The notes under the pieces: generated by a model
Told to the model about the DNA's origin: nothing
Databases searched by the model: none
The model's input: only the letters and a program-made list of their open reading frames with translations
Translations under genes and position numbers: made by a program
In this document: piece after piece, positions 9,205-36,624 of the stretch
Position numbering within the stretch: the first letter of the stretch is position 1
How the letters are laid out: each line of letters begins with the position of its first letter
Sequence record: NZ_CP019209.1
Length of the DNA: 64,000 nt
Strand: one strand, 5' to 3'
Source: a plasmid

Positions 9205-9247
9205 AAAATAATAAAACAGCACAAAGAAATCTCTTTGTGCTGTTTTA

Positions 9248-9938: not shown

Positions 9939-9951
9939 AATGAATCTTCCT

Positions 9952-12636: not shown

Positions 12637-13298
12637 TTTCTCTCCAATTTATATCCTACATTTCTTATAGTAGTTATACAGTCTAATTGTAATTTTTTTC
12701 TAAGTTCTTTTATATATACATCTATTACTCGATCATAAGGAGTTTCTTCGCTATCTTTCCATACATAATCAATAATTTGCATTCTTGTTAACACTTGTCC
12801 ATTATTATCCAATAAACATTTTAATACTTCTAGTTCTTTTGCATTTACATCTATTTCTTCACCATTTATTTTAGCTGTATAGCTATTAAAATTAACCGAT
12901 AGATCCTTATATTCAAACTTCTCTAAATGTCCATAATTCTTCTTAATTAAAGAATCTATTCTAGCTTTTAAGACCGGCAATGAAAATGGCTTTTCTACAT
13001 ATCCGTCTACTAAATTAGTAAATGCATCAATTTTATATTCTTCATCACTAAATGCAGTCAAGATTAGAATTGGTAAATTGCTTTTCTTTCTAATTTCTTT
13101 CAACACTTCTAAACCATTTATAAAAGGTATCTGAATGTCTAAGATAACCAAATTTATATCGCTATTAAATTTTGACAAGGCTTCTCTTCCATCTTTAGCT
13201 TGAATAACAGTATATCCAAATTCTGAAAGATATTCACTTATTCCCTCTCTTATCATATTATCATCTTCAACAGTTAATATTTTCATATATACCTCCAC
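12633..13298 (-). CDS. OmpR-family response regulator (221 aa)
   Basis: Receiver domain (KILTVEDDNMIREG..., D at ~53) and a winged-helix C-terminus; overlaps the HK start by 4 nt. Confidence 0.85.
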   Translation of the reverse strand: MEVYMKILTVEDDNMIREGISEYLSEFGYTVIQAKDGREALSKFNSDINLVILDIQIPFINGLEVLKEIRKKSNLPILILTAFSDEEYKIDAFTNLVDGYVEKPFSLPVLKARIDSLIKKNYGHLEKFEYKDLSVNFNSYTAKINGEEIDVNAKELEVLKCLLDNNGQVLTRMQIIDYVWKDSEETPYDRVIDVYIKELRKKLQLDCITTIRNVGYKLERK

Positions 13299-13434
13299 TT
13301 AAGCCTATACACTAGATATTATACAGCATATTATGGCTCTATAATATCTAGTGTTGGTGACACCTTCTGTTGCCAATACTTTTTCTTTTTTCTAATAAAT
13401 GCAAACAGACACCTTGAAATCCTTTAGAATAAAG

Positions 13435-14934
13435 GGTTCTATAATATTTTGTGTTGTTGGAAAATCGAAGGCGATTTTCTACTAACACTTTTTCTTCGTT
13501 TCAACTCAAAAAGAGACTCACTTTTGGTAAAATTTAGTCGACCAAAACATCACCCTACCAAAGGAGTCGCTCTATGGATAATCATACTAGAAAATTACTC
13601 GGATTAACAGATAAACATTTATTTTTTGATGAAGAATGGCTGATTGAAAAAGAATATAAAGGCGTTCAAGCGCAGTTTATTAAAGGGAGATTGGATGACT
13701 CACCTTCCCATTGTGAACACTGTGGATCGATTCGTATTATCCGCAACGGTTCCTATACGACACGTACTCAGATATTGAAAGTCAAAGAAAAGTTGACTAT
13801 TTTAGAATTAAAACGTACCCGTTTTCTATGCTATGATTGTGGGCAGACCTTTTCTGCGAAAACGGACTTAGTTGATGAACATCATCAACTAACAAAGGAA
13901 CTGAAGCAGGCGATTCTCATAGAACTGTACGAAAATCAATCACGTAAACTAATCGCTAAGAAGTACTTCGTCTCGGATGGGACGGTGACACGGATCTTGC
14001 GTGAAGCAACGAAGCATTACCAGCCACGTATGAACTTCCTTCCGACGGTGTTGTGTATGGATGAGTTCAAATCAATGAAGTCTGTTTCTGGTTCCATGAG
14101 TTTTATTTGTGTTGATGGGACAACCCATCAGCTATTTACGATCCTTGAAGATCGCAGACTTTACAAACTAACTCAATACTTCCTGCGCTTTCCTAGAAAA
14201 GCCCGTTTAAAGGTCAAGTACCTAGTGATGGACATGAATGCCAGCTATTGTCAGTTGCTTAAAACAGTCTTTCCAAATGCGGAGATCGTAACTGACCGCT
14301 TTCATATTGTCCAACACATCAATCGCAGCTTCAATCAATTACGTGTCCAGATCATGAATCGTTTTCGAACCTCACACTCTGAAAATCAGAAGAAGTACCG
14401 TCGGCTCAAGCGATATTGGAAACTCTTACTCAAAGATTCCACGACATTGGAGCCACTCAAACGGCATTATCATCGACTGTTTAAACGACCAATTAGTCAA
14501 ACAGAAATCGTTGATGAGCTGTTAAGCTACAACGAAGAATTGCGAACTGCGTATCATTTTTGTCAATTATTACGCTATTATTTCGTTAAACGAGGTACGG
14601 AAGGCTTTCAAGAAACCCTTAAAACAATTTCATCTACGTTACCTCAGTCGTTTAAAAAGAAATTCACGATCTTCCATCGCTACCAATCGGGTATTTCAAA
14701 TGCCTTTAAGGTGTCCCACTCAAACGGCGTCACTGAGGGGCTGAATAACAAGATCAAGCTGATTAAACGAATTGCGTTTGGTTATCGCAACTTTTATAAC
14801 TTTCGGGCACGGATCTATTTACAACAAGGTCTGATCTTTGAAAACTAAAAAAATATGCGGCGCACAGAACGCGCCGCATATCGGACTAAGTTTTATTCAA
14901 ATTTGTCTTCACCAACACGATTTGACGAAGAGCC
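13435..14934 (+). mobile_element. ISL3-family IS, second type (copy 1)
   Basis: IRL GGTTCTATAATATTTTGTGTTGTTGG, IRR (rc) GGCTCTTCGTCAAATCGTGTTGGTG. No TSD. An extra IR-like sequence GGCTCTATAATATCTAGTGTTGGTG lies 95 bp upstream at 13339. Confidence 0.8.
13574..14848 (+). CDS. tnp: ISL3-family transposase (424 aa)
   Basis: CEHCGS...CYDCGQ zinc finger and a DDE domain; ~97% identical to the inverted copy at 33773..35047. Confidence 0.9.
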   Translation: MDNHTRKLLGLTDKHLFFDEEWLIEKEYKGVQAQFIKGRLDDSPSHCEHCGSIRIIRNGSYTTRTQILKVKEKLTILELKRTRFLCYDCGQTFSAKTDLVDEHHQLTKELKQAILIELYENQSRKLIAKKYFVSDGTVTRILREATKHYQPRMNFLPTVLCMDEFKSMKSVSGSMSFICVDGTTHQLFTILEDRRLYKLTQYFLRFPRKARLKVKYLVMDMNASYCQLLKTVFPNAEIVTDRFHIVQHINRSFNQLRVQIMNRFRTSHSENQKKYRRLKRYWKLLLKDSTTLEPLKRHYHRLFKRPISQTEIVDELLSYNEELRTAYHFCQLLRYYFVKRGTEGFQETLKTISSTLPQSFKKKFTIFHRYQSGISNAFKVSHSNGVTEGLNNKIKLIKRIAFGYRNFYNFRARIYLQQGLIFEN

Positions 14935-16468
14935 AAAAATTATCGTACTTGATTACGGTAGTCAGTATAACCAACTGATCACTCGCCGTATTCGTGAGTT
15001 CGGTGTTTTCTCAGAGTTGATGAGCCACCGCATTACCGCAGAAGAAGTAAAGGCAATGAACCCTAAAGGAATCATCCTTTCTGGCGGACCAAACAGTGTT
15101 TATGATGAGAAGGCCTTTGGTATTGATGAAAAGATTTTTGATTTGGGGATCCCAGTTTTAGGAATCTGTTACGGTATGCAGTTGATTACTTATAAATTAG
15201 GCGGAAAAGTTAAACCAGCCAAAAACCGTGAATACGGAAAAGCAGAATTGGAAATCACTTCTGCAGAAGCGGCCCTTTTCCAAAACACTCCTGAAAAACA
15301 AACCGTTTGGATGAGTCATGGTGACCTAGTTACCCAAGCACCGACTGATTTCGATGTCGTTGCTACCAGCAAAGATTGCCCCATCGCATCGATCCAAAAT
15401 GCAGAACGCAAAATGTACGGAATCCAATTCCATGCAGAAGTTCGCCATTCCGAATATGGAAATGACTTGTTGCGCCATTTTACACTAGATGTCTGCCAAT
15501 GTACTGGTGACTGGACAATGGATAACTTCATCGACATGGAGATCGCAAAAATTCGTGAACAAGTCGGTGACAAAAAAGTTTTATTAGGCCTTTCAGGCGG
15601 AGTAGATTCCTCTGTTGTTGGTGTTCTTTTACAAAAAGCGATCGGCGATCAATTAACATGTATCTTCGTTGATCACGTATTGTTGCGTAAAGGTGAAGCA
15701 GAACAAGTTATGGAAAGTCTTGGCGGAAAATTTGGCTTGAACATTATAAAAGTCGATGCCAAAGAACGTTTCTTATCAAAACTTGCTGGCGTGTCTGATC
15801 CAGAAGAAAAACGTAAAATCATTGGAAATGAATTTGTATATGTCTTCGATGATGAAGCAACCAAACTTGCCGGTGAAGAAGGCGTTTCTTTCCTTGCACA
15901 AGGAACCCTTTATACCGATGTGATCGAATCAGGAACTGAAACTGCCCAAACCATCAAATCACATCACAATGTAGGTGGATTACCTGAAGACATGCAATTC
16001 AAGCTGATCGAGCCATTGAACACATTGTTCAAAGACGAAGTACGTGAATTAGGTACCCAATTAGGCATGCCTGACAGCATCGTTTGGCGCCAACCATTCC
16101 CTGGACCAGGCTTAGGTATTCGTGTCCTTGGTGAATTGACAGAAGAAAAATTAGAAATCGTCCGTGAATCAGACGCTATCTTGCGCGAAGAAATCGCCAA
16201 TGCCGGTTTAGATCGCGACATCTGGCAATACTTCACCGTCCTACCAGGCATTCGCTCTGTTGGGGTTATGGGAGATGGCCGTACGTATGACTACACTGTA
16301 GGTATCCGTGCTGTCACTTCTATTGACGGCATGACCGCTGACTTTGCCCGTATCCCTTGGGAAGTCTTGCAAAAAATCAGTGTCCGTATCGTAAATGAAG
16401 TCGCACACGTTAACCGTATCGTGTATGATATTACCAGCAAACCACCTGCAACAGTGGAGTGGGAATAA
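14855..16468 (+). CDS. guaA: GMP synthase (glutamine-hydrolysing); native N-terminal codons replaced by an in-frame extension encoded by the ISL3 end
   Basis: GATase motif GICYGMQL and HGD, plus the ATP-PPase motif SGGVDSSV. GuaA homology begins ~14935 ([14 protein letters not shown]); the first ~27 codons of the ORF lie inside the IS right end. Confidence 0.9.
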
Positions 16469-16553
16469 GACGTAAATATAATATGGATGGGGAATGCCGA
16501 TAAATCAACGTTTTTCAACGTAAGCGCCCCATAGAACAGTACCTTACTAACAA

Positions 16554-16796
16554 ATGCACCTCAAGATATACTTGAGCTATCAAGAAGTCTGGAGGTTTTC
16601 TATGTATAAATTAAATGAGATTGTTCCTGTCCAATTAGGAAACGAAAAGAGTGCACCAGAAAAAGGTAAACCCGCGGCTGCCAAGTTAGCGATGCGCATC
16701 AAAAGAGAGAATGGTTCTGAAGTTTTGATCTATAACGGTATTAACAATTATATTCTTCAAGCTATTTTGAAAGAACTGTTGTCCAATGCTTTATGA
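16554..16796 (+). CDS. tnpA: IS66-family accessory protein TnpA (Orf1)
   Basis: 80-aa first ORF of the IS66 element. Confidence 0.7.
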   Translation: MHLKIYLSYQEVWRFSMYKLNEIVPVQLGNEKSAPEKGKPAAAKLAMRIKRENGSEVLIYNGINNYILQAILKELLSNAL

Positions 16797-17139
16797 TTTA
16801 CTTCAAACCAAACATATTTATATTGTGTGCGGAAAAACAGATTTGCGAAAAGGAATTGATGGTCTTGCCAGTCTTATTCAACAAGAGTATCAACTCGAGC
16901 TTTACGAAGATGCCGTTTTTTTATTTTGCGGGAACCGTCAAGACCGTTTCAAACTTCTCTATTGGGACGGTGATGGTTTTCTTCTCTGTTATAAGCGGAT
17001 AGAAAACGGCAAGTTAAAATGGCCTCGGACGAAAGACGAAGTTCGAACCTTAACGAACCAACAGGTTCGATGGTTGTTAGAAGGATTAAGTATCGATCAA
17101 CCTCGAGCTATTTTGCCAGGAAAAAAAGGAGTTTTTTAA
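16786..17139 (+). CDS. tnpB: IS66-family TnpB (Orf2)
   Basis: 117 aa with the conserved IS66 Orf2 signature (IYIVCGKTDLRKGIDGLA...FLFCGNRQDRFKLLYWDGDGF). Confidence 0.85.
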   Translation: MLYDLLQTKHIYIVCGKTDLRKGIDGLASLIQQEYQLELYEDAVFLFCGNRQDRFKLLYWDGDGFLLCYKRIENGKLKWPRTKDEVRTLTNQQVRWLLEGLSIDQPRAILPGKKGVF

Positions 17140-17240
17140 GCTGGGGGGTTAACACAAAAAATGTGTTGAACCCCTATTTCTTGTGCGTTTCTTGTGGTAT
17201 TCTGTAACAAAATCAGTTCGATTCAAGGTGGTGAAAAATT

Positions 17241-18788
17241 TTGGAAACTACAGATACGTTGCTTCAGTTGCTTCAAGAAGCCCATAAAACCAATCAAGCA
17301 CAACAACAAACCATTCAGAATCTTACAACTGAAATCCAACTATTGAATGAAAAGGTCAATTATTTAACCAACAAATTATTTGGACGCTCTAAAGAGACTC
17401 TCTTTGAGGAAACGAATGGGCAATTGAATCTTTTTAGTGATGAAGAAATTTCTGTAAGTGTTCCAGAAGCAGCTGCCACCATTATTCCAGTAAAAGGACA
17501 TCAACGAGTTGTAGGAACGAAAGCAGACAAAATCAAACACTTACCTATAACAGAGAAAGAACATCTCCTTCCTTTGGAAGAACAATTTTGTGAACATTGC
17601 GGTTCACAGATGAAAGATATCGGACGGACAAAAGTACGAGAAGAAATTCGTTTCCATCAGGCTATGTTGGATTGTCTCACCCATTATCAACATACCTATT
17701 GTTGTAAAAGCTGCGAAAAAGAAGGACTTTCTTCTTTTAAAAAAGCGATCGTTCCTAAACCTTTGATTTCTAATAGCTTAGGTTCCAATAGTTTAGTGGC
17801 GGAAACGATCCGGATGAAATTTGGTCAGAAAGTTCCTGCCTATCGGCAAGAGAACTATTGGAAACAAACACATGGGTTGGATATTTCGAGAGATAATATC
17901 ACCAATTGGCATATTAAAGCAGTGCAAAACGCGTTAGACCCTTTAGGAGAACGATTAAGAGTCTATCTTAATCAAGAAGAGATTCTACACGGGGATGAAA
18001 CAAGTTATCGTGTGATTGAAAGTGCCAAAACAGATACCTATTACTGGCAGTTTTGTACAGGAAAAGACAGTCAGCATCCCATCGTTTATTATCACCACGA
18101 CGAAAGTCGTGCTGGAGATGTTCCGAAAACTTTTCTCAAGGAGTTTACAGGGTATTTACACTGTGACGGCTATAGCGGGTATAATGCCGTGGAAAGTGTA
18201 CGACTTGTCTATTGTTTCGCGCATGTTCGGCGGAAATTTTTCGAAGCAATTCCAAAAGGAAAGAAAAACACGGATATTCCCGCAGCTCAAGCAGTCAAAC
18301 AATTGGATAAATGGTTTGTCCTAGAAAAGAAATGGAAAGACTTTTCTCCTGAGAAGCGATTAAGCTGTCGGCAACAAGAACTGCGTCCATTATTTATTGC
18401 TTTTTATGAGTGGATGGCAACGATAGATCCTGTTGCAAAATCCAAGTTGGATGCAGCCGTTCAATATGCGTGTAAACTACGAAGTGGTTTTGAACCTATT
18501 TTTGAAGATGGTCGTTTAGAACTCACAAATAATCGTGCGGAGCGAAATATCAAAGAGCTGGTGATAGGACGGAAAAATTGGTTGCATTCCACAAGTCTTG
18601 AAGGAGCACGAACTTCAGGAATCATTCTGAGTGTATATAAAACAGCAGAACTTAACGGATTGAATCCTGTAAAGTATCTAGAGTTTCTATTTGATAAGAT
18701 ACCAAATCTTCCCGTACTTTCAGCAGAAACTTTAGATCAACTGTTGCCTTGGAACAAGGATGTACAACAACATTTTTCTCGTAACTAA
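17241..18788 (+). CDS. tnpC: IS66-family DDE transposase TnpC (515 aa)
   Basis: Leucine-zipper N-terminus, CxxC zinc-finger pair (CEHCGS...CCKSCEK), DDE core. Confidence 0.9.
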   Translation: METTDTLLQLLQEAHKTNQAQQQTIQNLTTEIQLLNEKVNYLTNKLFGRSKETLFEETNGQLNLFSDEEISVSVPEAAATIIPVKGHQRVVGTKADKIKHLPITEKEHLLPLEEQFCEHCGSQMKDIGRTKVREEIRFHQAMLDCLTHYQHTYCCKSCEKEGLSSFKKAIVPKPLISNSLGSNSLVAETIRMKFGQKVPAYRQENYWKQTHGLDISRDNITNWHIKAVQNALDPLGERLRVYLNQEEILHGDETSYRVIESAKTDTYYWQFCTGKDSQHPIVYYHHDESRAGDVPKTFLKEFTGYLHCDGYSGYNAVESVRLVYCFAHVRRKFFEAIPKGKKNTDIPAAQAVKQLDKWFVLEKKWKDFSPEKRLSCRQQELRPLFIAFYEWMATIDPVAKSKLDAAVQYACKLRSGFEPIFEDGRLELTNNRAERNIKELVIGRKNWLHSTSLEGARTSGIILSVYKTAELNGLNPVKYLEFLFDKIPNLPVLSAETLDQLLPWNKDVQQHFSRN

Positions 18789-18967
18789 AAACGCCAAACA
18801 TTCCCGATTCTATTCTATAGGTCGGGTTATTTGACGTACAGGTACTGTTCTATGGGGCGCTTACTTTTCAACTTTTGAAATGCTTGATTTTCATTAAAAA
18901 TGATATGGTTCCCTACCATTTTTCCTACCAAAAAAGGGCACTACAGACATAAGTCCTTGAACAAGCG

Positions 18968-19066
18968 AAATATCCGAACAATAAGAGAATTGCTCCTACG
19001 GTCCAGTTGGTCCTCGTTGCAAAACGATAGTTTTTCTGCTATCCTAGTCTCTTGTTCGGATATTTT
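18968..19066. other. Long-range inverted repeat (AAATATCCGAACAA ... TTGTTCGGATATTT) enclosing ~70 nt; possible structured RNA or remnant
   Basis: 14-bp perfect complementary arms at 18968-18981 and 19053-19066, in the gap between the IS66 TSD and the downstream terminator. Confidence 0.25.
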
Positions 19067-19079
19067 TTGTCTATTTTCA

Positions 19080-19114
19080 CTTCTGTCACAGTCCCTTTTT
19101 TAAAGTGACAGAAG
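19080..19114. terminator. Bidirectional rho-independent terminator (CTTCTGTCAC-N15-GTGACAGAAG, T-rich loop and flank)
   Basis: 10-bp perfect stem. It lies downstream of the minus-strand gene ending at 19180 and downstream of the guaA/IS66 region on the plus strand. Confidence 0.6.
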
Positions 19115-19179
19115 TTAGCTGATATCTCAAGTATGTTCCCACTTAAATAATCAATTTAACCATTTTTTATTTAATTTTG

Positions 19180-20112
19180 TTAGCGATTGATCGAGCGGCT
19201 AACGCAGTTGATGGTATGTCGCATTCCTCTAATTGCAACCGAGGTTTCGAAAATATTTTCTGCTGGTGCCAATCCCCCGTATCCAGCATCTCCAATATGT
19301 TGTAAATCAACACCACAACTTTTATTCATAATGGCTAATTGCCGCAATGTTTCTGGTCGGGCACTTTCCTGACTAGTACCGATTGCAGACATCGTTAACA
19401 AATCATATTTTTTTGCCAACCGAACCGCTTCAATTAGGTCTTGCTCTAAAAAGCCTGGGATAGACCCTACTGAAGGAACTAGTAAAATATCTGCGCCTGC
19501 TTCCGCATAAGAAATAATCGCCTCTTTATTCACAACTGGCTCTTCTGAGCCGGCGCTATGCATTTTCCCAGCAATAATCAATCCCGAAAAATACTTTTTT
19601 GCCATTTTTACGGATTTAGTAATTTCTAAATTGGTTACTCCAGTGCCTGGATTACCGGTAAAGCAAATAAAATCGACTCCTAGTTCTTCTGCTTTTTGTA
19701 TCGTTTCAACAGAGCTTGCTCTTCCTTGGCTGATTTCTACTTTCTCACTCATCATATTTGTTTTAGGGGCAATGGGTTCTAAATTAATTCCCACAGGACG
19801 ACCGACTAGTTCTTTTAATTTAGGAATCGGGTTTTCAATCGTTTGCTGTAGATCAAAAACCTTCTCAATCGTCACATTTGGTAGTCCAAAAACTGCAGGA
19901 CGATAACAATCGAAACCATTTAAAAGAATCAAATCTGCACCAAATGCTGACGCAACTTCTGCATTCGTAATTTCTCCAGATTGTGGAAGAGTATTAGCAA
20001 CCGTTTCACAAACAATCACCCGTCCTTCACTCGCTTTGATGGATTGCTTCAACTCTTTTGACGTCATTTTCTTGACATCACTGTAGTTTGCACTAATTAA
20101 TCTCTTGACCAT
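19180..20112 (-). CDS. Hypothetical protein (310 aa), alternating beta/alpha pattern suggests a TIM-barrel sugar-phosphate enzyme; last gene of the hyl operon
   Basis: Full ORF co-directional with the glycoside hydrolases. I recognise no diagnostic motif. Confidence 0.45.
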   Translation of the reverse strand: MVKRLISANYSDVKKMTSKELKQSIKASEGRVIVCETVANTLPQSGEITNAEVASAFGADLILLNGFDCYRPAVFGLPNVTIEKVFDLQQTIENPIPKLKELVGRPVGINLEPIAPKTNMMSEKVEISQGRASSVETIQKAEELGVDFICFTGNPGTGVTNLEITKSVKMAKKYFSGLIIAGKMHSAGSEEPVVNKEAIISYAEAGADILLVPSVGSIPGFLEQDLIEAVRLAKKYDLLTMSAIGTSQESARPETLRQLAIMNKSCGVDLQHIGDAGYGGLAPAENIFETSVAIRGMRHTINCVSRSINR

Positions 20113-20151
20113 TTTGTTCTCCTTTTTCTTGCTTTTTATTTTTTAAGATAT

Positions 20152-24797
<4,646 letters not shown>

Positions 24798-24918
24798 TCA
24801 CTTCCTACTTTTTTTCTCTTCTTAATAAAAGAGTTAGTGGTAAGCTACTTATGAATAGAAAACGAACCACTTTCCCATTAGATGAGCAAGTGGTCCGTTC
24901 AACGGGAAGATTCCTTCG

Positions 24919-26883: not shown

Positions 26884-27473
26884 GGCAACTTTGCTAACGC
26901 TCTTTCAGTTAATTTACTAATCAATATTACCGTTACAGCTGTTCCGCCAAACAGAAAAATCACAGGCAAAATCATCAATATTCGGAAATAAATTCCAAGC
27001 ACCAAGCCTTGCATGACTACCGTTGGCAACATCGTTGCTGTGAAAAGCAAATAGTCAATCAGTCGGTCTCCCATCATCCACAACCCAAGACTTTTGATCA
27101 CGACCCAATTCAACATTGCAAAGACTAGGAACAGTGTAATTACCGATAATAATGTACTTAATAAATAAAACAATGGTGCGCTTTGCTGCCAACAAAGCCA
27201 GATCGTAGTAATATTGCCGGCCAACAACAAAGTTGCTGACCAGCAATATAGATTATATCTAACAAAATTTTTCTTATAGATTTTACTCATGAACTTCACA
27301 GACTCTTGCAAGCCATATTTTTTTCGATTCACAACGCCAGCAATCAAAGCTATCGTAGCAGGGAAAAAACCTAAAATTCCAAATCCTAAACAAATTAGTA
27401 TAAAATAAGTAAAGTTTAGTAACAACAATTGAAAAACCCAATTAAATCCTTTGGTCCATTTGTTTTCGTTCAT
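26862..27473 (-). CDS. YesL-like (DUF624) membrane protein
   Basis: 203 aa with ~6 TM; this family typically accompanies LplABC/YesOPQ-type sugar ABC loci. Confidence 0.6.
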   Translation of the reverse strand: MNENKWTKGFNWVFQLLLLNFTYFILICLGFGILGFFPATIALIAGVVNRKKYGLQESVKFMSKIYKKNFVRYNLYCWSATLLLAGNITTIWLCWQQSAPLFYLLSTLLSVITLFLVFAMLNWVVIKSLGLWMMGDRLIDYLLFTATMLPTVVMQGLVLGIYFRILMILPVIFLFGGTAVTVILISKLTERALAKLPCQIQSH

Positions 27474-27523
27474 TTGAATCCCCCCACTAACTGCTTAGTC
27501 TATTCTTTTCATTTAGTAAAAAA

Positions 27524-28996
27524 TTATTTGTTAGATTTTCGCCATTCATCGTATTGTTCTTGAGCAGATGCCTGAATTTTATCCAATCCAGCTTTTTCTA
27601 GTTTTTCTAACAACTCTGGTACATATTGTTCAGGGTCAACTGTTCCCGAGCTTAAAAGTACTTCATATTGTGACACGATATTTTGTACACTTGCAATTTC
27701 TGTTCGAAAATCAGAAGCGTCAAAAGAGAAACCTAAAATAGGAGACATCGGTGCTTCATTTTGAAACTTTTTACTTTCTTCTTCTAGTTTTTTACTTTCT
27801 TCTGTAATCGGTGAAGTTTTTGAAACTAGATAAGTATTTACCAATGCCCAAGCGCCTTGATAATAATCATCAGAGTTTGTTAAAGTAATCGAACCATCTT
27901 CATTGCGATCATAGTGTTTTCCTTCAATTCCATAAACCATTAAATCCGCTACTTCTTGATTGGTATTCACATAATTCAACAATTTCAAGGCTGCTTCCGG
28001 ATGTTTACTTGAAGCAGATACCGCATGCATTGCCACTCTTGCAAATCCAGTCGTTTTAAAAGCTTTTCCAGCTGGTTTTAAAATTAATCCATGTCCCGCT
28101 AGAGCTTCTAATTTTTTTTGTGCTAATGGTTGATAACCACTTGAGTTACGACCTAAAAACCAGTTTTTACTATCAATTCGAAATGGATCTGTCGTAACAG
28201 TGGCTGCATCTTTCAAAATATATCCTTTTTTATAAAACTCATGCATAGCCTTCAAATAAGTCATCATTTCTGGAGTCTCATAAGTATTAACAACTGTTTG
28301 TGTATCGCCTTCAAATGCAACCGCTAGCGGTACACCACCACCGATAATATTGTCATAAGGAATACAGACACTGGTACGGGTCATACCGATTGGCGTAATA
28401 TTCGTATCAGTATTTTTTTCTGCAAACTTTTCTAATACTGGAGCCAATGTTTCTACACCTTCAACATTCTCTACATCCAATTGGTATTGATCTACCAAAT
28501 CTTTATTAAAGGTCCAATATTCCGTTGTGGCAATATCGTTATTGACTGGCAATCCATAAGTTTCGCCATTAATTGCCCCACCTTCAATAAATCCTTCATT
28601 CAATTCAGCTGCATAATCTTTCAACTCTTTATCCAAATGATCGTTGAGACTAATGAAAGCACCTTTGTTCCCATAATTCACATAATCTGTGCCATTGACG
28701 AAACAAATATCATATTCTTCTCCTGAATTGATCATCACACCAAGCTTTTGCTGATAATCCCCGTCCGGAATCAGCCGCATATCCAACTCTACATTGATTT
28801 CTTCCTTTAATTTTTCGTTGACTTTTGTCATGACCTCATCAAAATCTTTGGGTTCTTCTCCAACCTGATACCAAGTAACTTTTGTGGTTCCTGTTTCATT
28901 ATTTGCTTCGCCATTACTGCTACCACAAGCACCTAATAGGCCAAGGGTTAGTACAGAAGCACCACCAATCAAATATTTCTGCATGTTCTTTTTCAT
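27524..28996 (-). CDS. Extracellular solute-binding lipoprotein of a carbohydrate ABC transporter (LplA/YtcQ-like, 490 aa)
   Basis: Lipoprotein signal LGLLGACGSS and a large family-1 SBP. Confidence 0.8.
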   Translation of the reverse strand: MKKNMQKYLIGGASVLTLGLLGACGSSNGEANNETGTTKVTWYQVGEEPKDFDEVMTKVNEKLKEEINVELDMRLIPDGDYQQKLGVMINSGEEYDICFVNGTDYVNYGNKGAFISLNDHLDKELKDYAAELNEGFIEGGAINGETYGLPVNNDIATTEYWTFNKDLVDQYQLDVENVEGVETLAPVLEKFAEKNTDTNITPIGMTRTSVCIPYDNIIGGGVPLAVAFEGDTQTVVNTYETPEMMTYLKAMHEFYKKGYILKDAATVTTDPFRIDSKNWFLGRNSSGYQPLAQKKLEALAGHGLILKPAGKAFKTTGFARVAMHAVSASSKHPEAALKLLNYVNTNQEVADLMVYGIEGKHYDRNEDGSITLTNSDDYYQGAWALVNTYLVSKTSPITEESKKLEEESKKFQNEAPMSPILGFSFDASDFRTEIASVQNIVSQYEVLLSSGTVDPEQYVPELLEKLEKAGLDKIQASAQEQYDEWRKSNK

Positions 28997-29019
28997 CTTT
29001 TAACATCTCCTATTCTTTT

Positions 29020-29931
29020 TTATTCTTTCACTCCACCGATCGTCAATCCTTGAACAAAGTATTTTTGGAAGAACGGATAAACAATTGCAATCGGTAAAGT
29101 AGCTACTACGACCATTGCCATTCGTGTTGATTCTTGAGGAAGGCTATTTTGAATTGCTTGTTGCTGCGCTAATGTAATGTCATTATTATTTGCTAAGAAT
29201 TCCATTGAATTTTGAATCTTCATTAACAAATATTGCAATGGAATCAATTTGTTGGTGTCAATATACAGCAATGCGTTGAACCAGTCATTCCAATAACCTA
29301 AGCTTGAAAATAAACCTATTGTTGCAACCCCTGGGATCGCTAAAGGCAAAACGATTTGGAAAAAAACTCGAAACTCACTACAGCCATCCATTTTAGCGGA
29401 TTCGATAATCGATTCTGGAATCGACTTCTTAAAGAATGTCCTTAAAATAATGACATTGTATGGGCTAAAAGCAAGAGGTAGAATCAAAGCCCAAATTGTA
29501 TTTTTTAAGCCAAGCATCTTCGTCATCACTAAGTAAGAAGGAACCATCCCTCCCGCAAATAACATGGTAAAAAAAAGATAAAAAGTAAAGAACTTCCGGT
29601 AAGGGAAAGAGGCTCTTGATAAAACATAAGCATAGGTTCCCGTCATAAAAACAGTAATCAACGTTCCAATCACTGTAATCATAATTGTAACGCCTAATGA
29701 CCGAAGTAACTGTCCGCCATCTTGTATTAAGTATTGATATGCATCAGTGCTCCATTGAGCCGGCAATAATTCGTAACCGTTGAGTTGTAATGCTTTTTCA
29801 TCTGTTAATGAAATGACGATTACGAAAATAAAGGGAAAAATACAGCTAAGAGTAAATAAGATTAGTAATATTGTGAAAAACCGTTCGACTGGCAGCGAAA
29901 AGTACATCTGCCGTTTTAATTTTGATATCAT
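29020..29931 (-). CDS. Carbohydrate ABC transporter permease (LplC/YtcP-like)
   Basis: 6-TM MalG-like permease with an EAA loop region. Confidence 0.8.
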   Translation of the reverse strand: MISKLKRQMYFSLPVERFFTILLILFTLSCIFPFIFVIVISLTDEKALQLNGYELLPAQWSTDAYQYLIQDGGQLLRSLGVTIMITVIGTLITVFMTGTYAYVLSRASFPYRKFFTFYLFFTMLFAGGMVPSYLVMTKMLGLKNTIWALILPLAFSPYNVIILRTFFKKSIPESIIESAKMDGCSEFRVFFQIVLPLAIPGVATIGLFSSLGYWNDWFNALLYIDTNKLIPLQYLLMKIQNSMEFLANNNDITLAQQQAIQNSLPQESTRMAMVVVATLPIAIVYPFFQKYFVQGLTIGGVKE

Positions 29932-29942
29932 TTTGATTCCTC

Positions 29943-30881
29943 CTAAAATAGTGCTGAACTAGGATCTAACTTGTTGACTATCTTATTAGTAATCAAAATC
30001 AAGACAAAGCCAACTGATGACTGATATAATCCCGCTGCCGTAGACATTCCGATATCTCCGCTATTCATTAATCCACGGTAGACATAAGTATCTAATACAT
30101 TCGTCACATCATAAAGAGCCCCCGAATTTCTTGGCAATTGATAAAACAATCCAAAATCAGCTCGAAAAATACTACCAACAGACAAAATCAACATAATGAC
30201 AATAATCGATCTTAAATGTGGCAAGACTACATTCCTTATCTGTTGCCATTTACTGGCACCATCAACTAAAGCAGCTTCATAATAACTAGTATCGATCCCC
30301 ATAATTGACGCGTAATAAATGATGGATCCATAACCTACGCCTTTCCATAAACTCGTAAAAACAATAATAAAAGGCCAGTACTTCGGTTCACTATACCAAT
30401 TTATGGGTTCCACACCAAAATTGCTTAGTAAAATATTAATTAATCCTTTATCCGTACTCAAAAATGCGTAAACAAAGTAACTGATGACTACCCATGATAA
30501 AAAATTAGGAAAAATCATAAATGTCTGCATCTTTTTCAATAACCGTTTGTTCGCCATTTGGCTCAGAATGATTGCTAATGACACTGTACAAAAAGTACTT
30601 AGCAAAATACCTACAACGTTATAAACAACCGTATTGCGAGTAATGATCCAAGCATCTTGCGAAGCAAAGAGATATTTGAAATTTTCCCAGCCAACCCAAG
30701 GACTGTTGAACAAACTTGTAAAGAATCCCCTTGATGAAATTCTGAAATCTTTAAAAGCGATTACAACTCCAAACATTGGTATATAGCAAAATATAAATAA
30801 CCATAACGCACCTGGTAAAAGCATAATAAACAATGCTCGGTTTTTTTTTAGATTTCCTAATAACCCTTTCTTTAGCTTCAT
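29943..30881 (-). CDS. Carbohydrate ABC transporter permease (LplB-like)
   Basis: 6-TM MalF-like permease; first gene of the minus-strand transporter operon. Confidence 0.8.
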   Translation of the reverse strand: MKLKKGLLGNLKKNRALFIMLLPGALWLFIFCYIPMFGVVIAFKDFRISSRGFFTSLFNSPWVGWENFKYLFASQDAWIITRNTVVYNVVGILLSTFCTVSLAIILSQMANKRLLKKMQTFMIFPNFLSWVVISYFVYAFLSTDKGLINILLSNFGVEPINWYSEPKYWPFIIVFTSLWKGVGYGSIIYYASIMGIDTSYYEAALVDGASKWQQIRNVVLPHLRSIIVIMLILSVGSIFRADFGLFYQLPRNSGALYDVTNVLDTYVYRGLMNSGDIGMSTAAGLYQSSVGFVLILITNKIVNKLDPSSALF

Positions 30882-31109
30882 TTTGTCTCTCCTCTCTCAG
30901 CGTTTCCTTGATTATACCCACTTGGTTAATCGCTTACATTAATTTTTTATACATTATTTTTAGTTTATTAAACCTCTACAATAGAATAGTTTTTAAACGG
31001 AAACTGTATTCACAATCATAAGTAGCCCTGTTTGCAAAGCGTTTACATCACTTGTAATATGTGCTATAATGATTCATAAAATTAGAGATTATCAAAATGA
31101 GGACTTTGA

Positions 31110-32684
31110 ATGAAAAACGATTTATCAAAAGTTATTATGCGTTTTACATACATATTGATTTTTTTTATTACTTTACTTGCCTGTTTCACATTGTTCTTTT
31201 CCTATATCAATGTGATTGAAAAAGAAAAAAATCAAAACCTGCAAAACATTCAGCAAATCACCCACTATATGGAAACATATAATCGTATTCTCTCCGGTAT
31301 CGTGACAGAGATCTATCAAAATTATGATTTCCAAGAAAACCTTAATGACTACTACCTCTCATCACCTGCTGAATACATGGAAGATATTTTGTCAAAGGAT
31401 CGCTCCCCTACCTATTTAGTAGATAACTTAAAAAAACTTGTGCAAGATGATGAAGTTAAAAATATATCTATCTCATTAGATTACGAAAAATACTTAAGTG
31501 CCTACGCACCTACAAAAAACGAAAAAATTTCTTTTATTCGTTCATTAAGTTTCATTAGTGAGGACATGCCCGATGCTACATTGATTCTAGACGTTTCGAT
31601 CAACGCGCTAAAAAAGAGTCTCTTTCCAACACATTACAATTATTCTTTGTCTAATGGTATTGATTCCGTCAATTTATCTGAAGACATCTCGCCTTCTAAA
31701 TGGAAAAAAACGCAACAGATAGCTATCGGTAACCACACATTACAAGTATATGAAAATCCAAATTATTCGTCACAAACCTTATTAGGTCTGGCAATCATGA
31801 TTTTCTTATTAATGAGTTTGTTTATTCTTGCTATTCATCAATTATTAAATAGAAGTTTTCGTAACTATATCCAGCAGTATCAGGAAATCATTACTTCCTT
31901 AAATCATTCATCTACAGGAGACTACAAGTCAATCAATATCGAAAACAAAGTCGGTGATTTGAAAGAAATCGCTATGCATATCAATCAGTTTTATTTAGAT
32001 AATGCTACATATCAAAAAACACTTTATGAAAATAATTGGTTGAAGCAAGAAGCAAAGTATGCAGCACTTCAATATCAAATCGAGCCTCATTTTCTATTTA
32101 ATAATTTGGAATTTATTCGAATGACTGCCATATTGAATGATGACGAAGAAATCAGCGACAGTATATATTTATTGAGCAAGTTGTATCGCAATAATACATA
32201 TCAGCCCGACATAATTGATTTGAAAGAGGAATTAATTAATATCGACCTCTCCTTGCAACTACATCAACGTCGTTATCGACATAACTTTGACTATCAGCTG
32301 ATTGATCATATTGATCAATTAATGTTACCAAAACTTTCTTTACAGCCATTTGTTGAAAATTATATTAAACACGGCTTCGATTCATCAAAAAAGGAAAATC
32401 GTTTGACTGTCTATGCAACTGAAACAACCAACCATTATGTGTTAAAAATCGTTGAAAATGGGAAAGGAATGGACCAAGACAAGCTGGAGCATATTCAACA
32501 AAAACTTAATGATGATATTCCTTATAGTGAGAATATCGGCATCTCAAATTCTTTTCGACGTATAAAGCATCTCTATCCTGGAGATACACGTTTTGTTATA
32601 GAAAGCCAACTACACGTCGGAACAACGATTACTATCAAAATACAAAAAGGGGGGAATATGCATGTTGAGAATTGCAATTGTTGA
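31110..32684 (+). CDS. YesM-like sensor histidine kinase (524 aa)
   Basis: Two TM flanking a ~200-aa extracytoplasmic domain, His_kinase (LFNNLEFIR) and HATPase_c domains; divergent from the ABC operon. Confidence 0.8.
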   Translation: MKNDLSKVIMRFTYILIFFITLLACFTLFFSYINVIEKEKNQNLQNIQQITHYMETYNRILSGIVTEIYQNYDFQENLNDYYLSSPAEYMEDILSKDRSPTYLVDNLKKLVQDDEVKNISISLDYEKYLSAYAPTKNEKISFIRSLSFISEDMPDATLILDVSINALKKSLFPTHYNYSLSNGIDSVNLSEDISPSKWKKTQQIAIGNHTLQVYENPNYSSQTLLGLAIMIFLLMSLFILAIHQLLNRSFRNYIQQYQEIITSLNHSSTGDYKSINIENKVGDLKEIAMHINQFYLDNATYQKTLYENNWLKQEAKYAALQYQIEPHFLFNNLEFIRMTAILNDDEEISDSIYLLSKLYRNNTYQPDIIDLKEELINIDLSLQLHQRRYRHNFDYQLIDHIDQLMLPKLSLQPFVENYIKHGFDSSKKENRLTVYATETTNHYVLKIVENGKGMDQDKLEHIQQKLNDDIPYSENIGISNSFRRIKHLYPGDTRFVIESQLHVGTTITIKIQKGGNMHVENCNC

Positions 32685-33390
32685 CGATGATTGTACAATT
32701 GTAGAAGGCATAAGGCATTATCTTTTGAAGAAAGTCCCCGACATCATTATCGATCACTGCTACACAGACGGAGACGAAGCATTTAAAAACCTGCAAAACC
32801 AGCGCTTTGATTTACTTATCACAGATATTACGATGGGGAAAATTTCTGGACTCGAATTAATCGAATCTTTGCAACAAACATCCAATCGCTACTTTACTAG
32901 TATTGTCATTAGTGCCCACCAAAATTTTCAGTATGCAAAAAAGGGGATTGATTTATCTATTAAAAGTTACATAACGAAACCCATTGATTTTCCTTATTTA
33001 GTTAAGTTAGTACAAGAAGAAAAAATGCGTAAATCAGCAGCTAATCAAAACTCTCTAACTGATGATTCTTTTAATGAGTCAATTCAACAAGTGATTGATT
33101 ACGTTCAAAACAATTATAGTGAAAAGCTTACGCTCAAAGATGTAGCTACACAATTCCATTACCATCCCGCTTATTTAGGACGGGCCTTCAAAAAAGAAAC
33201 AGGTTATTCCTTTCATGATTACTTGCTAGACTTTCGAATCAAAAGAGCAAGTGCTCTACTGAAAGACACATTCTTATCTATTGATGAAATTAGTCAAAAA
33301 GTAGGAATAGATCACGTGAGCTATTTTTCTGTTCTCTTCAAAAAAACTACTGGACACAGCCCCAGTAATTACCGTAAAAAGCTTCTATAA
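32662..33390 (+). CDS. YesN-like response regulator with an AraC-type HTH output (242 aa)
   Basis: Receiver domain (IAIVDDD...DLLITDITM) plus a C-terminal AraC HTH; overlaps the HK gene. Confidence 0.85.
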   Translation: MLRIAIVDDDCTIVEGIRHYLLKKVPDIIIDHCYTDGDEAFKNLQNQRFDLLITDITMGKISGLELIESLQQTSNRYFTSIVISAHQNFQYAKKGIDLSIKSYITKPIDFPYLVKLVQEEKMRKSAANQNSLTDDSFNESIQQVIDYVQNNYSEKLTLKDVATQFHYHPAYLGRAFKKETGYSFHDYLLDFRIKRASALLKDTFLSIDEISQKVGIDHVSYFSVLFKKTTGHSPSNYRKKLL

Positions 33391-33685
33391 TTTCTCAGAC
33401 GTGTTCATCTTCTAGTTATACTTATACAACAAGGAGCCATTGAAAAGTGGTGATTTTTGGCTATTAACCATTTAATGATGGTAGAGAAAAATACATTAGA
33501 ATATTTAATCAGATCCAGTTGAGCATAACGCATAGGATTTTCCTTATGTCTTCAACCCCCGCTGAGGTTGAGGAATATGGAAAAAACTACTATGCAAGTC
33601 GAGTGCAAAAATGGCGCTGAACTATTTAACTGAAATGAAAAAGGCTATTTTAGAAGATAGAATAAATGGATGTAGTTATTTAAAT

Positions 33686-35186
33686 AGGCTCTTCGTCAAA
33701 TCGTGTTGGTGAAGACAAATTTGAATAAAACTTAGTCCGATATGCGGCGCGTTCTGTGCGCCGCATATTTTTTTAGTTTTCAAAGATCAGACCTTGTTGT
33801 AAATAGATCCGTGCCCGAAAGTTATAAAAGTTGCGATAACCAAACGCAATTCGTTTAATCAGCTTGATCTTGTTATTCAGCCCCTCAGTGACGCCGTTTG
33901 AGTGGGACACCTTAAAGGCATTTGAAATACCCGATTGGTAGCAATGGAAGATCGTGAATTTCTTTTTAAACGACTGAGGTAACGTAGATGAAATTGTTTT
34001 AAGGGTTTCTTGAAAGCCTTCCGTACCTCGTTTAACGAAATAATAGCGTAATAATTGACAAAAATGATACGCAGTTCGCAATTCTTCGTTGTAGCTTAAC
34101 AGCTCATCAACGATTTCTGTTTGACTAATTGGTCGTTTAAACAGTCGATGATAATGCCGTTTGAGTGGCTCCCATGTCGTGGAATCTTTGAGTAAGAGTT
34201 TCCAATATCGCTTGAGCCGACGGTACTTCTTCTGATTTTCAGAGTGTGAGGTTCGAAAACGATTCATGATCTGGACACGTAATTGATTGAAGCTGCGATT
34301 GATGTGTTGGACAATATGAAAGCGGTCAGTTACGATCTCCGCATTTGGAAAGACTGTTTTAAGCAACTGACAATAGCTGGCATTCATGTCCATCACTAGG
34401 TACTTGACCTTTAAACGGGCTTTTCTAGGAAAGTGCAGGAAGTATTGAGTTAGTTTGTAAAGTCTGCGATCTTCAAGGATCGTAAATAGCTGATGGGTTG
34501 TCCCATCAACACAAATAAAACTCATGGAACCAGAAACAGACTTCATTGATTTGAACTCATCCATACACAACACCGTCGGAAGGAAGTTCATACGTGACTG
34601 GTAATGCTTCGTTGCTTCACGCAAGATCCGTGTCACCGTCCCATCCGAGACGAAGTACTTCTTAGCGATTAGTTTACGTGATTGATTTTCGTACAGTTCC
34701 ATGAGAATTGCCTGCTTCAGTTCCTTTGTTAGTTGATGATGTTCATCAACTAAGTCCGTTTTCGCAGAAAAGGTCCTTCCACAATCATGGCAGAGAAAAC
34801 GGGTACGTTTTAATTCTAAAATAGTTAACTTTTCTTTGACTTTCAATATCTGAGTGCGTGTCGTATAGGAACCGTTGCGGATAATACGAACCGATCGACA
34901 GTGTTCACAATAGGAAGGAGAGTCATCCAATTTTCCTTTAATAAACTGCGCTTGAACGCCTTTATATTCTTTTTCAATCAGCCATTCTTCATCAAAAAAT
35001 AAATGTTTATCTGTTAATCCGAGTAATTTTCTAGTATGATTATCCATTGAGAGACTCCTTTGGTAGGATGACGTTTTGGTCGACTAAATTTTACCAAAAG
35101 TGAGTCTCTTTTTGAGTTGAAACGAAGAAAAAGTGTTAGTAGAAAATCGCCTTCGATTTTCCACCAACACAAAATATTATAGAAGC
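33686..35186 (-). mobile_element. ISL3-family IS, second type (copy 2), inverted relative to the copy at 13435
   Basis: Same IRs as copy 1. Together the two copies bracket 14935..33685. Confidence 0.8.
33773..35047 (-). CDS. tnp: ISL3-family transposase (424 aa)
   Basis: Near-identical to the 13574..14848 ORF (a handful of substitutions). Confidence 0.9.
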   Translation of the reverse strand: MDNHTRKLLGLTDKHLFFDEEWLIEKEYKGVQAQFIKGKLDDSPSYCEHCRSVRIIRNGSYTTRTQILKVKEKLTILELKRTRFLCHDCGRTFSAKTDLVDEHHQLTKELKQAILMELYENQSRKLIAKKYFVSDGTVTRILREATKHYQSRMNFLPTVLCMDEFKSMKSVSGSMSFICVDGTTHQLFTILEDRRLYKLTQYFLHFPRKARLKVKYLVMDMNASYCQLLKTVFPNAEIVTDRFHIVQHINRSFNQLRVQIMNRFRTSHSENQKKYRRLKRYWKLLLKDSTTWEPLKRHYHRLFKRPISQTEIVDELLSYNEELRTAYHFCQLLRYYFVKRGTEGFQETLKTISSTLPQSFKKKFTIFHCYQSGISNAFKVSHSNGVTEGLNNKIKLIKRIAFGYRNFYNFRARIYLQQGLIFEN

Positions 35187-35259
35187 AAAATCAATTCTAC
35201 CTTAGATGTTCTTATATCACTCTATCAGTCCTATTTGACAAAGAGCCAAGAAAAAGACG

Positions 35260-36462: not shown

Positions 36463-36624
36463 CAAAAAATCTGAACCAGAATGTGGTTCATTCTGACCCG
36501 GATTTGATTTTGCACAACTCATCAGTCCTTATTGACAAAGAGCCAAAAATCTGAGCCAGAATGAGGTTCATTCTGACCCAGATTTGATTTTGTACAACCC
36601 ATCAGTCCTTATTGACAAAGAGCC
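36463..36624. repeat. Tandem duplication of the IS1251-like right terminus (2 x ~81 bp)
   Basis: Second unit is identical to 9125-9204; first unit differs by ~6 substitutions. Confidence 0.85.

What the first reader, a model, noticed from the sequence alone, without database searches (positions are those of the whole stretch)
13339..35186. Inverted copies of an ISL3-family element bracket ~18.7 kb (guaA, IS66, hylEfm glycan locus): composite-transposon-like structure without TSDs
Two ~97%-identical ISL3 copies in opposite orientation flank the whole hyl/glycan region. There are no matching 8-bp flanks, and an extra IR-like sequence sits 95 bp outside copy 1 at 13339-13365. This suggests movement by homologous or replicative events rather than one clean transposition. 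It gives a concrete mechanism for how the hylEfm region moves between megaplasmids.
Basis: seen in the sequence. Interest (0 to 1): 0.6.

Follow-up and report, generated by a model that had tools for sequence, protein, structure and literature searches.

The report
IS1476-bracketed hylEfm region, fixed in megaplasmid
Two inverted copies of the insertion sequence IS1476 do bracket the hylEfm sugar-utilisation region, but they look like scars of an old capture into one plasmid family, and nothing shows that the region still moves as a unit.

Summary
IS1476-like (ISL3-family) copies lie at 13435-14934 (+) and 33687-35186 (-). Each is 1500 bp, they are 98.4% identical, and they enclose 18,752 bp. 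No 8-bp target duplication exists in any flank pairing.

The "extra IR" is the first 100 bp of a different ISL3 element, X (13335-13434), which copy 1 interrupts. Copy 2 interrupts the last 61 bp of another ISL3 element, Y (35187-35247).

In PLSDB, all 66 hyl-positive plasmids carry the block at this one site:
- None has it inverted or in another context.
- The left outer junction also occurs in 168 hyl-negative plasmids.
- The right outer junction occurs only in hyl-positive plasmids.
- Element Y is intact at that site in the two hyl-negative relatives I examined.

Copy 1 is a mosaic. Its 5' ~600 bp match the resident backbone IS, and its 3' ~700 bp match copy 2.

The best reading is a single capture. 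An IS1476-bounded chromosomal fragment (5'-truncated guaA plus the glycan locus) inserted into Y. Homologous recombination with the resident IS1476 then erased the left duplication.

The structure has since been inherited with the plasmid. It is already present in the E. faecium DO plasmid 3 reference. This is ordinary IS mosaicism.

The parts
11317..13298 (-). Backbone two-component system (histidine kinase 11317-12636, response regulator 12633-13298). It forms the constant left flank of copy 1.
   Evidence: Pfam assignments. The same flank occurs in 234 PLSDB records.
13335..13434 (+). Remnant of ISL3 element 'X': its IRL plus leader, the first 100 bp.
   Evidence: 96% identical to the start of an intact ISL3 element (446-aa transposase, TSD TATATTTT) in CP132227. 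IR pattern match, coordinates.
13435..14934 (+). IS1476-like copy 1 (IRL at 13435-13459, transposase 13574-14848, IRR ending at 14934). It is a mosaic: positions 1-600 match the resident backbone copy, and positions 801-1500 match copy 2.
14935..16468 (+). 5'-truncated guaA (GMP synthase). Eleven native codons and the promoter are missing. The annotated ORF (14855-16468) starts inside copy 1.
   Evidence: Pfam. Native N-terminus MTNVDNMPNVEK in relatives P0001 and P0002. Junction alignment.
16520..18864 (+). IS66-family element (TnpB-like accessory protein 16786-17139, transposase 17241-18788). It is a later insertion with 8-bp duplication TTTTCAAC and is absent from DO and E745.
19180..30881 (-). 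hyl operon: DUF7916, GH84 (hylEfm), GH2, GH20, DUF624, ABC solute-binding protein and two permeases.
31110..33390 (+). Histidine kinase and AraC-type response regulator of the glycan locus. These are the last cargo genes before copy 2.
   Evidence: In every long contig that carries this exact regulator, copy 2 follows it.
33687..35186 (-). IS1476-like copy 2 (transposase 33773-35047). IRR faces the cargo and IRL faces outward.
35187..35247 (+). Remnant of ISL3 element 'Y': the last 61 bp including its IRR. Copy 2 sits in the loop of Y's terminator hairpin at target AAAATCAA.
   Evidence: Y is intact at the same backbone site in the hyl-negative plasmids LN999988 and CP027518. Coordinates.
35248..36544 (+). 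5'-truncated ISEfa11/ISEfa5-like ISL3 element 'Z', interrupted by Y.
36545..36624 (+). Last 80 bp of an ISEfa5-like element, into which Z inserted.
   Evidence: 80/80 identical to 9125-9204.

Best explanation
The two IS1476 copies are junction scars of a single old capture event, not the ends of a currently mobile transposon.

The cargo is a chromosomal-type fragment from an unidentified Enterococcus-like donor. It is cut inside codon 11-12 of guaA on one side and about 300 bp past the AraC-type regulator on the other. It was bounded by two inverted copies of one IS1476 allele.

Its right end (IRL of copy 2) was joined by transposition to the 8-bp target AAAATCAA in the tail of a resident ISL3 element, Y. 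Its left IS copy then recombined homologously with an IS1476 already resident 100 bp inside another ISL3 element, X.

That crossover, between IS positions ~600 and ~800, did two things. It deleted the rest of X, the intervening ~2.4 kb and the left part of Y. It also removed the left target duplication.

The result is a block with no duplications, flanked by an X head and a Y tail, with a hybrid copy 1. Since then the block has been inherited as part of the rep_cluster_893 (pDO3/pLG1-type) megaplasmid. Later changes were internal insertions (IS66, and a guaA-targeting integrative element in most relatives), gene conversion between the copies, and rearrangement beyond Y's end.

Shown: the junction anatomy, the distribution across plasmids, and the mosaic. 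Inferred: the order of events, and whether the entry step was a true composite transposition.
For: - No target duplication in any pairing, while a control IS1476 copy makes a clean 8-bp one.
- The outer left 100 bp are the head of ISL3-X and the outer right 61 bp are the tail of ISL3-Y. Both elements exist intact elsewhere with their own duplications.
- The left junction is found in 234 PLSDB records, of which only 66 carry hyl.
- Y is intact at the same site, with AAAATCAA present once, in the two hyl-negative relatives examined. Other hyl-negative records match the Y tail and its ABC-cluster flank but not the copy 2 part of the junction query.
- The copy 2-to-Y junction is found in 59 + 7 = 66 records, exactly the hyl-positive set and no hyl-negative one.
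- Copy 1 against the backbone IS: 1/597 differences in positions 1-600, but 10/281 in positions 801-1083. Copy 1 against copy 2: 21/597 in positions 1-600, but 2/701 in positions 801-1500.
- The hyl locus is at least 99% identical in all 66 records.
- The exact copy 1 and copy 2 transposase alleles occur only at this locus.
- guaA relatives with native N-termini place the IS junction at GTTGA|AAAAATTA|TCG.
Against: - No plasmid preserves an intermediate: neither Y-left joined to IS1476, nor IS1476 joined to the rest of X.
- The mosaic of copy 1 could equally come from later gene conversion by copy 2, as clearly happened in the other direction in DO.
- Chicken plasmid CP040850 has a single IS1476 in the opposite orientation at exactly the same AAAATCAA target. 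The model does not derive this and needs a second, independent insertion at a hot spot.
- The donor locus without IS elements was not found, so the two inner 8-bp targets cannot be checked on both sides.
Confidence: 0.62

Rival explanations
1. Double homologous exchange. The recipient plasmid already carried two resident IS1476 copies, one in X and one inverted in Y. A donor molecule carrying the IS1476-bounded guaA-hyl segment replaced the interval by two crossovers, with no transposition of the cargo.
For: It also explains the missing duplications, the backbone-type outer junctions and the hybrid copy 1.
Against: None of the 168 hyl-negative plasmids sharing the left junction has the inverted IS1476-to-Y junction. 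That junction is found only in the 66 hyl-positive records. The 5' allele of copy 2 is unique to this locus.
Confidence: 0.2
2. An active composite transposon (IS1476-cargo-IS1476) that still moves hylEfm between plasmids by transposition from its two outer IRL ends.
For: Both IS copies have intact ends and full-length transposase ORFs. ISL3 elements are reported to form circular intermediates (PMC3812183).
Against: There is no duplication around the unit. There is one insertion context in 66 plasmids and in all long contigs read. Chromosome-size records carry the same outer flanks, so more than the block moved in those cases.
Confidence: 0.05
3. Intramolecular replicative transposition of the resident IS1476 into Y. 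This would have inverted the intervening DNA and created copy 2 as an inverted duplicate.
For: It predicts inverted IS copies without direct duplications, and an IRL joined to the AAAATCAA target, both of which are seen.
Against: It also predicts the reverse complement of AAAATCAA next to copy 1's IRR, and of GAATAAAG next to copy 2's IRR. Neither is present. Copy 2 differs from the resident IS at 22 of 597 positions in the 5' part, so it is not a fresh copy of it. The cargo is foreign DNA, absent from hyl-negative backbones.
Confidence: 0.03
4. Two independent simple insertions on either side of a pre-existing plasmid segment, followed by inversion through recombination between the copies. 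This would swap the duplications.
For: Inverted copies do recombine, as shown by the gene-conversion tract in DO.
Against: The swapped-flank prediction fails: the left flank against the reverse complement of copy 2's inner flank shares at most 5 nt. No plasmid has the opposite orientation. The outer flanks are IS heads and tails whose other halves are missing.
Confidence: 0.05

Closest known systems
hylEfm region of pHylEfmTX16 / E. faecium DO plasmid 3 (NC_017963), and the 'hylEfm genomic island' of pLG1 (Laverde Gomez et al. 2011; cited in PMC3039558 and PMC3433357, paper itself not readable here)
   Same: Same locus. The order two-component system, IS1476, guaA, hyl operon, inverted IS1476 has identical junction nucleotides on all four sides.
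   Different: The window has an extra IS66-family insertion after guaA. Copy 2 in the window is not gene-converted, whereas in DO positions 251-600 are identical to copy 1. I could not check whether the IS1476 bracket and its missing duplications were described in the 2011 paper.
Classical compound transposons with inverted terminal IS copies (Tn5, Tn10 type; general knowledge)
   Same: Two intact, inverted copies of one IS enclose unrelated cargo, with the same IS end (IRL) facing outward on both sides.
   Different: There is no target duplication around the unit. It has a single genomic location. One terminal IS is a hybrid with a resident copy. There is no evidence of movement.
IS-mediated capture by recombination at resident IS copies, as described for IS26 pseudo-compound structures and plasmid mosaics (general knowledge)
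   Same: The IS copies mark junctions between DNA of different origin, lack duplications, and share one flank with cargo-free relatives.
   Different: The IS family is ISL3, not IS6. The copies are inverted, so simple recombination cannot excise the block. At least one junction (copy 2 to Y) looks like a true transposition end-join.
IS1476 (ISL3 family), first described in Tn1546 of E. faecium (MacKinnon et al. 1997; cited in PMC4438569)
   Same: A 1.5-kb element with GG-initiated imperfect terminal repeats and a 424-aa ISL3 DDE transposase. An independent copy shows an 8-bp duplication.
   Different: The two copies here are locus-specific alleles without duplications.

Membership tests
ISL3-family insertion sequence (IS1476-like) | DDE transposase of the ISL3 type with an N-terminal zinc ribbon / HTH | tested here: met
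   PF01610 E=3e-56 and PF14690 above their curated cut-offs; PF13542 (HTH_Tnp_ISL3) matches at 25.7 bits, just below its 27.4 cut-off, for copy 1. The copy 2 transposase is the same length and is annotated 'IS1476 family'.
ISL3-family insertion sequence (IS1476-like) | Imperfect terminal inverted repeats of about 25 bp beginning GG | tested here: met
   IRL is GGTTCTATAATATTTTGTGTTGTTG. IRR (reverse complement) is GGCTCTTCGTCAAATCGTGTTGGTG.
ISL3-family insertion sequence (IS1476-like) | 8-bp direct target duplication flanking each copy | tested here: not met
   Neither copy 1 nor copy 2 has one. A control copy in LR135318 does (GAAGTTCA), so the family feature holds but has been lost at this locus.
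Compound (composite) transposon | Two copies of the same IS with intact outer ends flanking cargo | tested here: met
Compound (composite) transposon | Target duplication flanking the whole unit | tested here: not met
   Outer flanks are GAATAAAG and AAAATCAA.
Compound (composite) transposon | The unit is found at more than one site, or an empty site exists that differs only by the unit plus the duplication | tested here: not met
   66 of 66 plasmids have the same context. Hyl-negative relatives differ by a replacement, not a simple empty site.
Compound (composite) transposon | Demonstrated transposition of the unit | not testable with these tools
   Needs mating-out or transposition assays, or detection of circular forms.
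Inversion product of intramolecular replicative transposition | Reverse-complement 8-bp sequences on diagonal flanks, and IS copies identical at birth | tested here: not met
   At most 4-5 nt shared. The 5' halves are 3.5% divergent.
IS-junction mosaic formed by homologous recombination | A hybrid IS whose two parts match different parental copies | tested here: met
   Copy 1: 1/597 differences from the backbone IS in the 5' part, and 2/701 from copy 2 in the 3' part. Later gene conversion cannot be excluded as the cause.
IS-junction mosaic formed by homologous recombination | An outer flank shared with relatives that lack the cargo | tested here: met
   The left junction is in 234 records, 168 of them without hyl. 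The Y target site is intact in the two hyl-negative plasmids examined, and other hyl-negative records match the Y tail and its flank without copy 2.

The most novel reading that the evidence does not exclude
ISL3-family elements of E. faecium may preferentially insert into the short non-coding heads and tails of other ISL3 elements, perhaps because their transposases recognise the related terminal repeats.

In and around this locus I count six such events:
- IS1476 100 bp inside the head of X.
- IS1476 twice at the identical 8-bp site 61 bp from Y's end, in opposite orientations and as different alleles.
- Y inside Z.
- Z 80 bp from the end of an ISEfa5-like element.
- ISEfa5 about 80 bp from the end of copy 2 in CP112412.

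Such nesting would create arrays of IS ends that seed the kind of capture seen here.
Probability: 0.25. Interest if true: 0.4.

Novelty: already known. Interest (0 to 1): 0.2.

Why it matters
hylEfm is a widely used marker of hospital-adapted E. faecium. The analysis indicates that the marker spread by one capture event followed by plasmid inheritance and plasmid-level recombination, not by repeated hopping of an IS1476-bounded transposon.

In practice, the 16-19 kb contigs that short-read assemblies give for this region end at the two IS1476 copies. They always belong between the same two backbone landmarks. The reconstruction adds detail to a known locus but does not change how ISL3 elements or these plasmids are understood.

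Tried and rejected
- **Target duplications.** I tested direct, composite, inner and reverse-complement pairings. None matched.
- **Inverted arrangement.** A chimeric query for it gave 0 of 297 records.
- **Reciprocal junctions.** I searched for Y-left plus AAAATCAA joined to IS1476 in either orientation, and for the IS1476 IRR plus GAATAAAG plus the rest of X. No record had them. Two partial hits were (i) the same copy 2 locus matched through Y's hairpin symmetry and (ii) an unrelated IS1476 copy.
- **One large ISL3 transposon.** I asked whether the outer X head and Y tail are the two ends of a single element enclosing everything. This is rejected. X and Y are different IS species, each with its own intact copies and repeats, and their outer flanks CATATTAT and AAGAAAAA do not match.
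- **Donor of the cargo.** GTDB species representatives have GH84 relatives at only 41-48% amino-acid identity, with no guaA linkage. JGI metagenomes returned only one contig identical to the block interior. The nearest native guaA is 97% identical in protein but ~88% in DNA, so it is not the donor.
- **Literature.** The papers I could read do not describe the IS1476 bracket. The 2011 pLG1 paper and Freitas 2010 are not held.


Full report
**Observation**

The window holds one long inverted repeat, 13437-14934 / 33687-35184. Reading the ends directly, and comparing with E. faecium DO and E745, shows that both copies are 1500 bp and begin GG. They run 13435-14934 (+) and 33687-35186 (-). They differ at 24 positions (98.4% identity), 21 of them in the first 600 bp. 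Each encodes a 424-aa ISL3-type DDE transposase. PGAP names the copy 2 transposase 'ISL3-like element IS1476 family' and the copy 1 transposase only 'ISL3 family'.

The 18,752 bp between the copies hold, in order:
- guaA
- an IS66-family element (16520-18864, duplication TTTTCAAC)
- the hyl operon: DUF7916, GH84 (hylEfm), GH2, GH20, DUF624 and an ABC importer
- a histidine kinase and an AraC-type response regulator

**Target duplications**

The 8-bp flanks on the + strand are GAATAAAG | copy 1 | AAAAATTA and TTTAAATA | copy 2 | AAAATCAA. I compared them in eight ways: direct for each copy, outer-outer, inner-inner, and the reverse-complement pairings expected after inversion or replicative inversion. 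No pairing shares more than 5 nt in these AT-rich flanks. As a control, an unrelated IS1476 copy in LR135318 is flanked by a perfect GAAGTTCA duplication. An ISEfa5 copy in the window (7691-9204) has AAAATAAT.

**What lies just outside the copies**

The 100 bp from 13335 to 13434 are 96% identical to the first 100 bp of an intact ISL3 element with a 446-aa transposase and its own duplication TATATTTT in CP132227. Copy 1 therefore interrupts another ISL3 element, X, upstream of its transposase gene. The rest of X is missing.

On the other side, 35187-35247 (61 bp) is the IRR end of a third ISL3 element, Y. Copy 2 sits in the loop of Y's terminator hairpin. Y in turn interrupts a 5'-truncated ISEfa11/ISEfa5-like element, Z (35248-36544). 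Z is followed by the last 80 bp of an ISEfa5-like element (36545-36624, 80/80 identical to 9125-9204). X and Y are different IS species with different repeats, so they are not the two ends of one larger element.

**Comparison with other plasmids (PLSDB)**

| Feature searched | Records |
|---|---|
| hyl locus without IS elements (19000-33686), all E. faecium, all at least 99% identical | 66 |
| Two-component system, copy 1 and guaA contiguous | 65 |
| Copy 2-to-Y junction with the window-type right flank | 59 |
| Copy 2-to-Y junction with the E745-type right flank | 7 |
| Left junction (two-component system, X head, IS1476 IRL) | 234 |
| Chimeric query for the inverted arrangement | 0 |

For the contiguous left structure, one further record is split by the record end. 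The two right-junction types sum to 66, so every hyl plasmid has both copies at the same nucleotides.

The left junction occurs in 168 plasmids without hyl. In two of these (LN999988, CP027518), the IS1476 is truncated at position 1083 and Y is intact at the same backbone site. There it reads ...CATCTAAAGCAG AAAATCAA TTCTACC..., upstream of an ABC-transporter cluster. By contrast, no hyl-negative plasmid has the inverted IS1476 joined to Y.

The exact transposase proteins of copy 1 and copy 2, and the exact AraC-type regulator, were found only in this context in all long contigs read. That includes three chromosome-size records, which carry the same outer flanks.

The interior of the block varies:
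- DO and E745 lack the IS66.
- About 43 plasmids carry a ~12-kb integrase-bearing element at the 3' end of guaA, between guaA and the IS66.

**Mosaic structure of the copies**

I aligned 14 IS1476 copies.

| Comparison | Positions 1-600 | Positions 801-1083 | Positions 801-1500 |
|---|---|---|---|
| Copy 1 vs resident backbone IS (hyl-negative EFE11651) | 1/597 differences | 10/281 differences | not available (backbone IS truncated at 1083) |
| Copy 1 vs copy 2 | 21/597 differences | 1/283 differences | 2/701 differences |

Copy 1 is therefore a hybrid: a backbone 5' part and a copy-2-type 3' part. In DO and BMT-1-1-10, positions 251-600 of copy 2 have been converted to the copy 1 sequence. 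The two copies do recombine, yet no crossover product (an inversion) is seen among finished plasmids.

**Origin of the cargo**

The annotated guaA ORF starts at 14855, inside copy 1's terminator hairpin. Native sequence begins at 14935/14936. Relatives with an intact N-terminus ([19 protein letters not shown]...) place the junction in GTTGA|AAAAATTA|TCG. Eleven codons and the promoter are missing. These relatives are 97% identical in protein but only ~88% in DNA. They lie on chromosome-like contigs. E. faecium's own chromosomal GuaA is 90% identical in protein.

About 130 bp downstream of guaA is also homologous to the chromosomal guaA region. The nearest GH84 relatives in species representatives are 41-48% identical in protein and are not linked to guaA. 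Metagenomes add nothing. The cargo thus looks like a chromosomal fragment from an unsampled Enterococcus-like donor.

**Most likely history**

The fragment entered bounded by two inverted copies of one IS1476 allele. Its right IRL end was joined by transposition to AAAATCAA in Y. This is supported because that junction exists only together with hyl, while Y is intact in the hyl-negative relatives examined. Its left copy then recombined with the IS1476 already resident in X. That crossover deleted the rest of X, about 2.4 kb and the left part of Y, along with the left target duplication. It also produced the hybrid copy 1.

The seven E745-type plasmids keep the backbone sequence right of Y. The 59 window-type plasmids have a further rearrangement exactly at Y's end.

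I give this about 0.6. A variant with two resident IS copies and a double crossover gets about 0.2. It is weakened by the lack of any hyl-negative plasmid with the inverted copy in Y.

Three other readings are each contradicted by tested predictions: an active composite transposon, replicative inversion, and two simple insertions followed by inversion.

**What remains unexplained**

Chicken plasmid CP040850 has a single, full-length IS1476 of a third allele in the + orientation. Its IRR abuts AAAATCAA and the Y tail at exactly the nucleotide where copy 2's IRL does. Homologous recombination cannot derive this from the copy 1 / copy 2 pair. It implies either a second insertion at the same 8-bp site or a transposase-mediated adjacent deletion. 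Together with the other nested ISL3 insertions here, and ISEfa5 inside copy 2 in CP112412 (duplication AAAAAATA), it hints at a preference of ISL3 elements for each other's non-coding ends. I did not test this genome-wide.

**Comparison with what is known**

The same structure, nucleotide for nucleotide at all four junctions, is in E. faecium DO plasmid 3, published in 2012 (PMC3433357). The region is cited as the 'hylEfm genomic island' of pLG1 (cited in PMC3039558), a paper I could not read. ISL3 elements are reported to transpose through circular intermediates (PMC3812183).

The locus resembles a compound transposon in layout but fails that family's tests for a flanking duplication and for more than one location. 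It fits the general class of IS-junction mosaics made by recombination at resident IS copies.

**Verdict**

The feature is real and correctly located. It is an already sequenced, ordinary IS-mediated mosaic. The claim that it explains how hylEfm moves between plasmids is not supported.

Noticed in passing
window 14855-14934 / 14935-16468: The annotated guaA ORF begins inside copy 1. Its ATG at 14855 lies in the IS terminator hairpin ATGCGGCGC...GCGCCGCAT, and other gene callers use a TTG at 14903. The gene therefore has no native promoter or first 11 codons, and any expression must come from within or through the IS.
   Followed up: partly
window 13309-13324 and 13340-13354: A 15-nt perfect inverted copy of the core of X's IRL (ACACTAGATATTATA / TATAATATCTAGTGT) lies between X and the response-regulator start codon. 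It could be a second, outward-facing ISL3 end remnant that supplies the TATAAT box of the two-component operon.
   Followed up: partly
L003 (CP027498) 1-10000, and about 43 other hyl plasmids; absent from the window: A ~12-kb element sits between guaA and the IS66 at the 3' end of guaA (shared core GAGTGGGAATAA). It carries a tyrosine integrase, DUF3173, a rep protein, a LacI-family regulator, a GH32 enzyme and a sugar ABC transporter. A different integrase element occupies the same guaA end in a chromosomal relative (L078).
   Followed up: partly
L068 (CP112412) 3782-5296: An ISEfa5 copy has inserted inside copy 2, about 80 bp from its IRR between the transposase stop and the terminator hairpin, with a clean duplication AAAAAATA.
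   Followed up: yes
L002 (DO) and L010 (CP063556), copy 2: Positions 251-600 of copy 2 are identical to copy 1 in these plasmids, while the first 250 bp keep the copy 2 allele. This is a gene-conversion tract between the inverted copies.
   Followed up: yes
L060/L073 (CP142725), L062 (CP175444), L074 (CP131067): The hyl block and its usual outer flanks occur on records 2.8-3.0 Mb long. This suggests integration of a larger megaplasmid segment into the chromosome, or a cointegrate or assembly join.
   Followed up: no
window 35187-36624: A four-deep nest of ISL3 elements lies right of copy 2: copy 2 in Y (61-bp tail), Y in the 5'-truncated Z (35248-36544), and Z in the last 80 bp of an ISEfa5-like element (36545-36624). 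A PemK/MazF-RelB toxin-antitoxin pair follows; the PemK/MazF toxin ORF is at 36641-36991.
   Followed up: yes
window 7691-9204: An intact ISEfa5 copy (1514 bp) with 8-bp duplication AAAATAAT. It is 99.9% identical to the copy in E745 pl1.
   Followed up: yes
window 1198-1628, 10461-11269, 53629-54437; 50296-50595 / 52910-53209; 58673-59127 / 63546-64000: Other repeats in the window: several IS1216 (IS6-family) copies in both orientations; a 100% identical direct repeat 2614 bp apart; and a 455-bp perfect inverted repeat that runs off the window end and matches an IS982-like ISEfm1.
   Followed up: no
window 11938-13296: The backbone two-component system left of copy 1 is ~84% identical in DNA to genes on about 22 Clostridium perfringens plasmids.
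   Followed up: no
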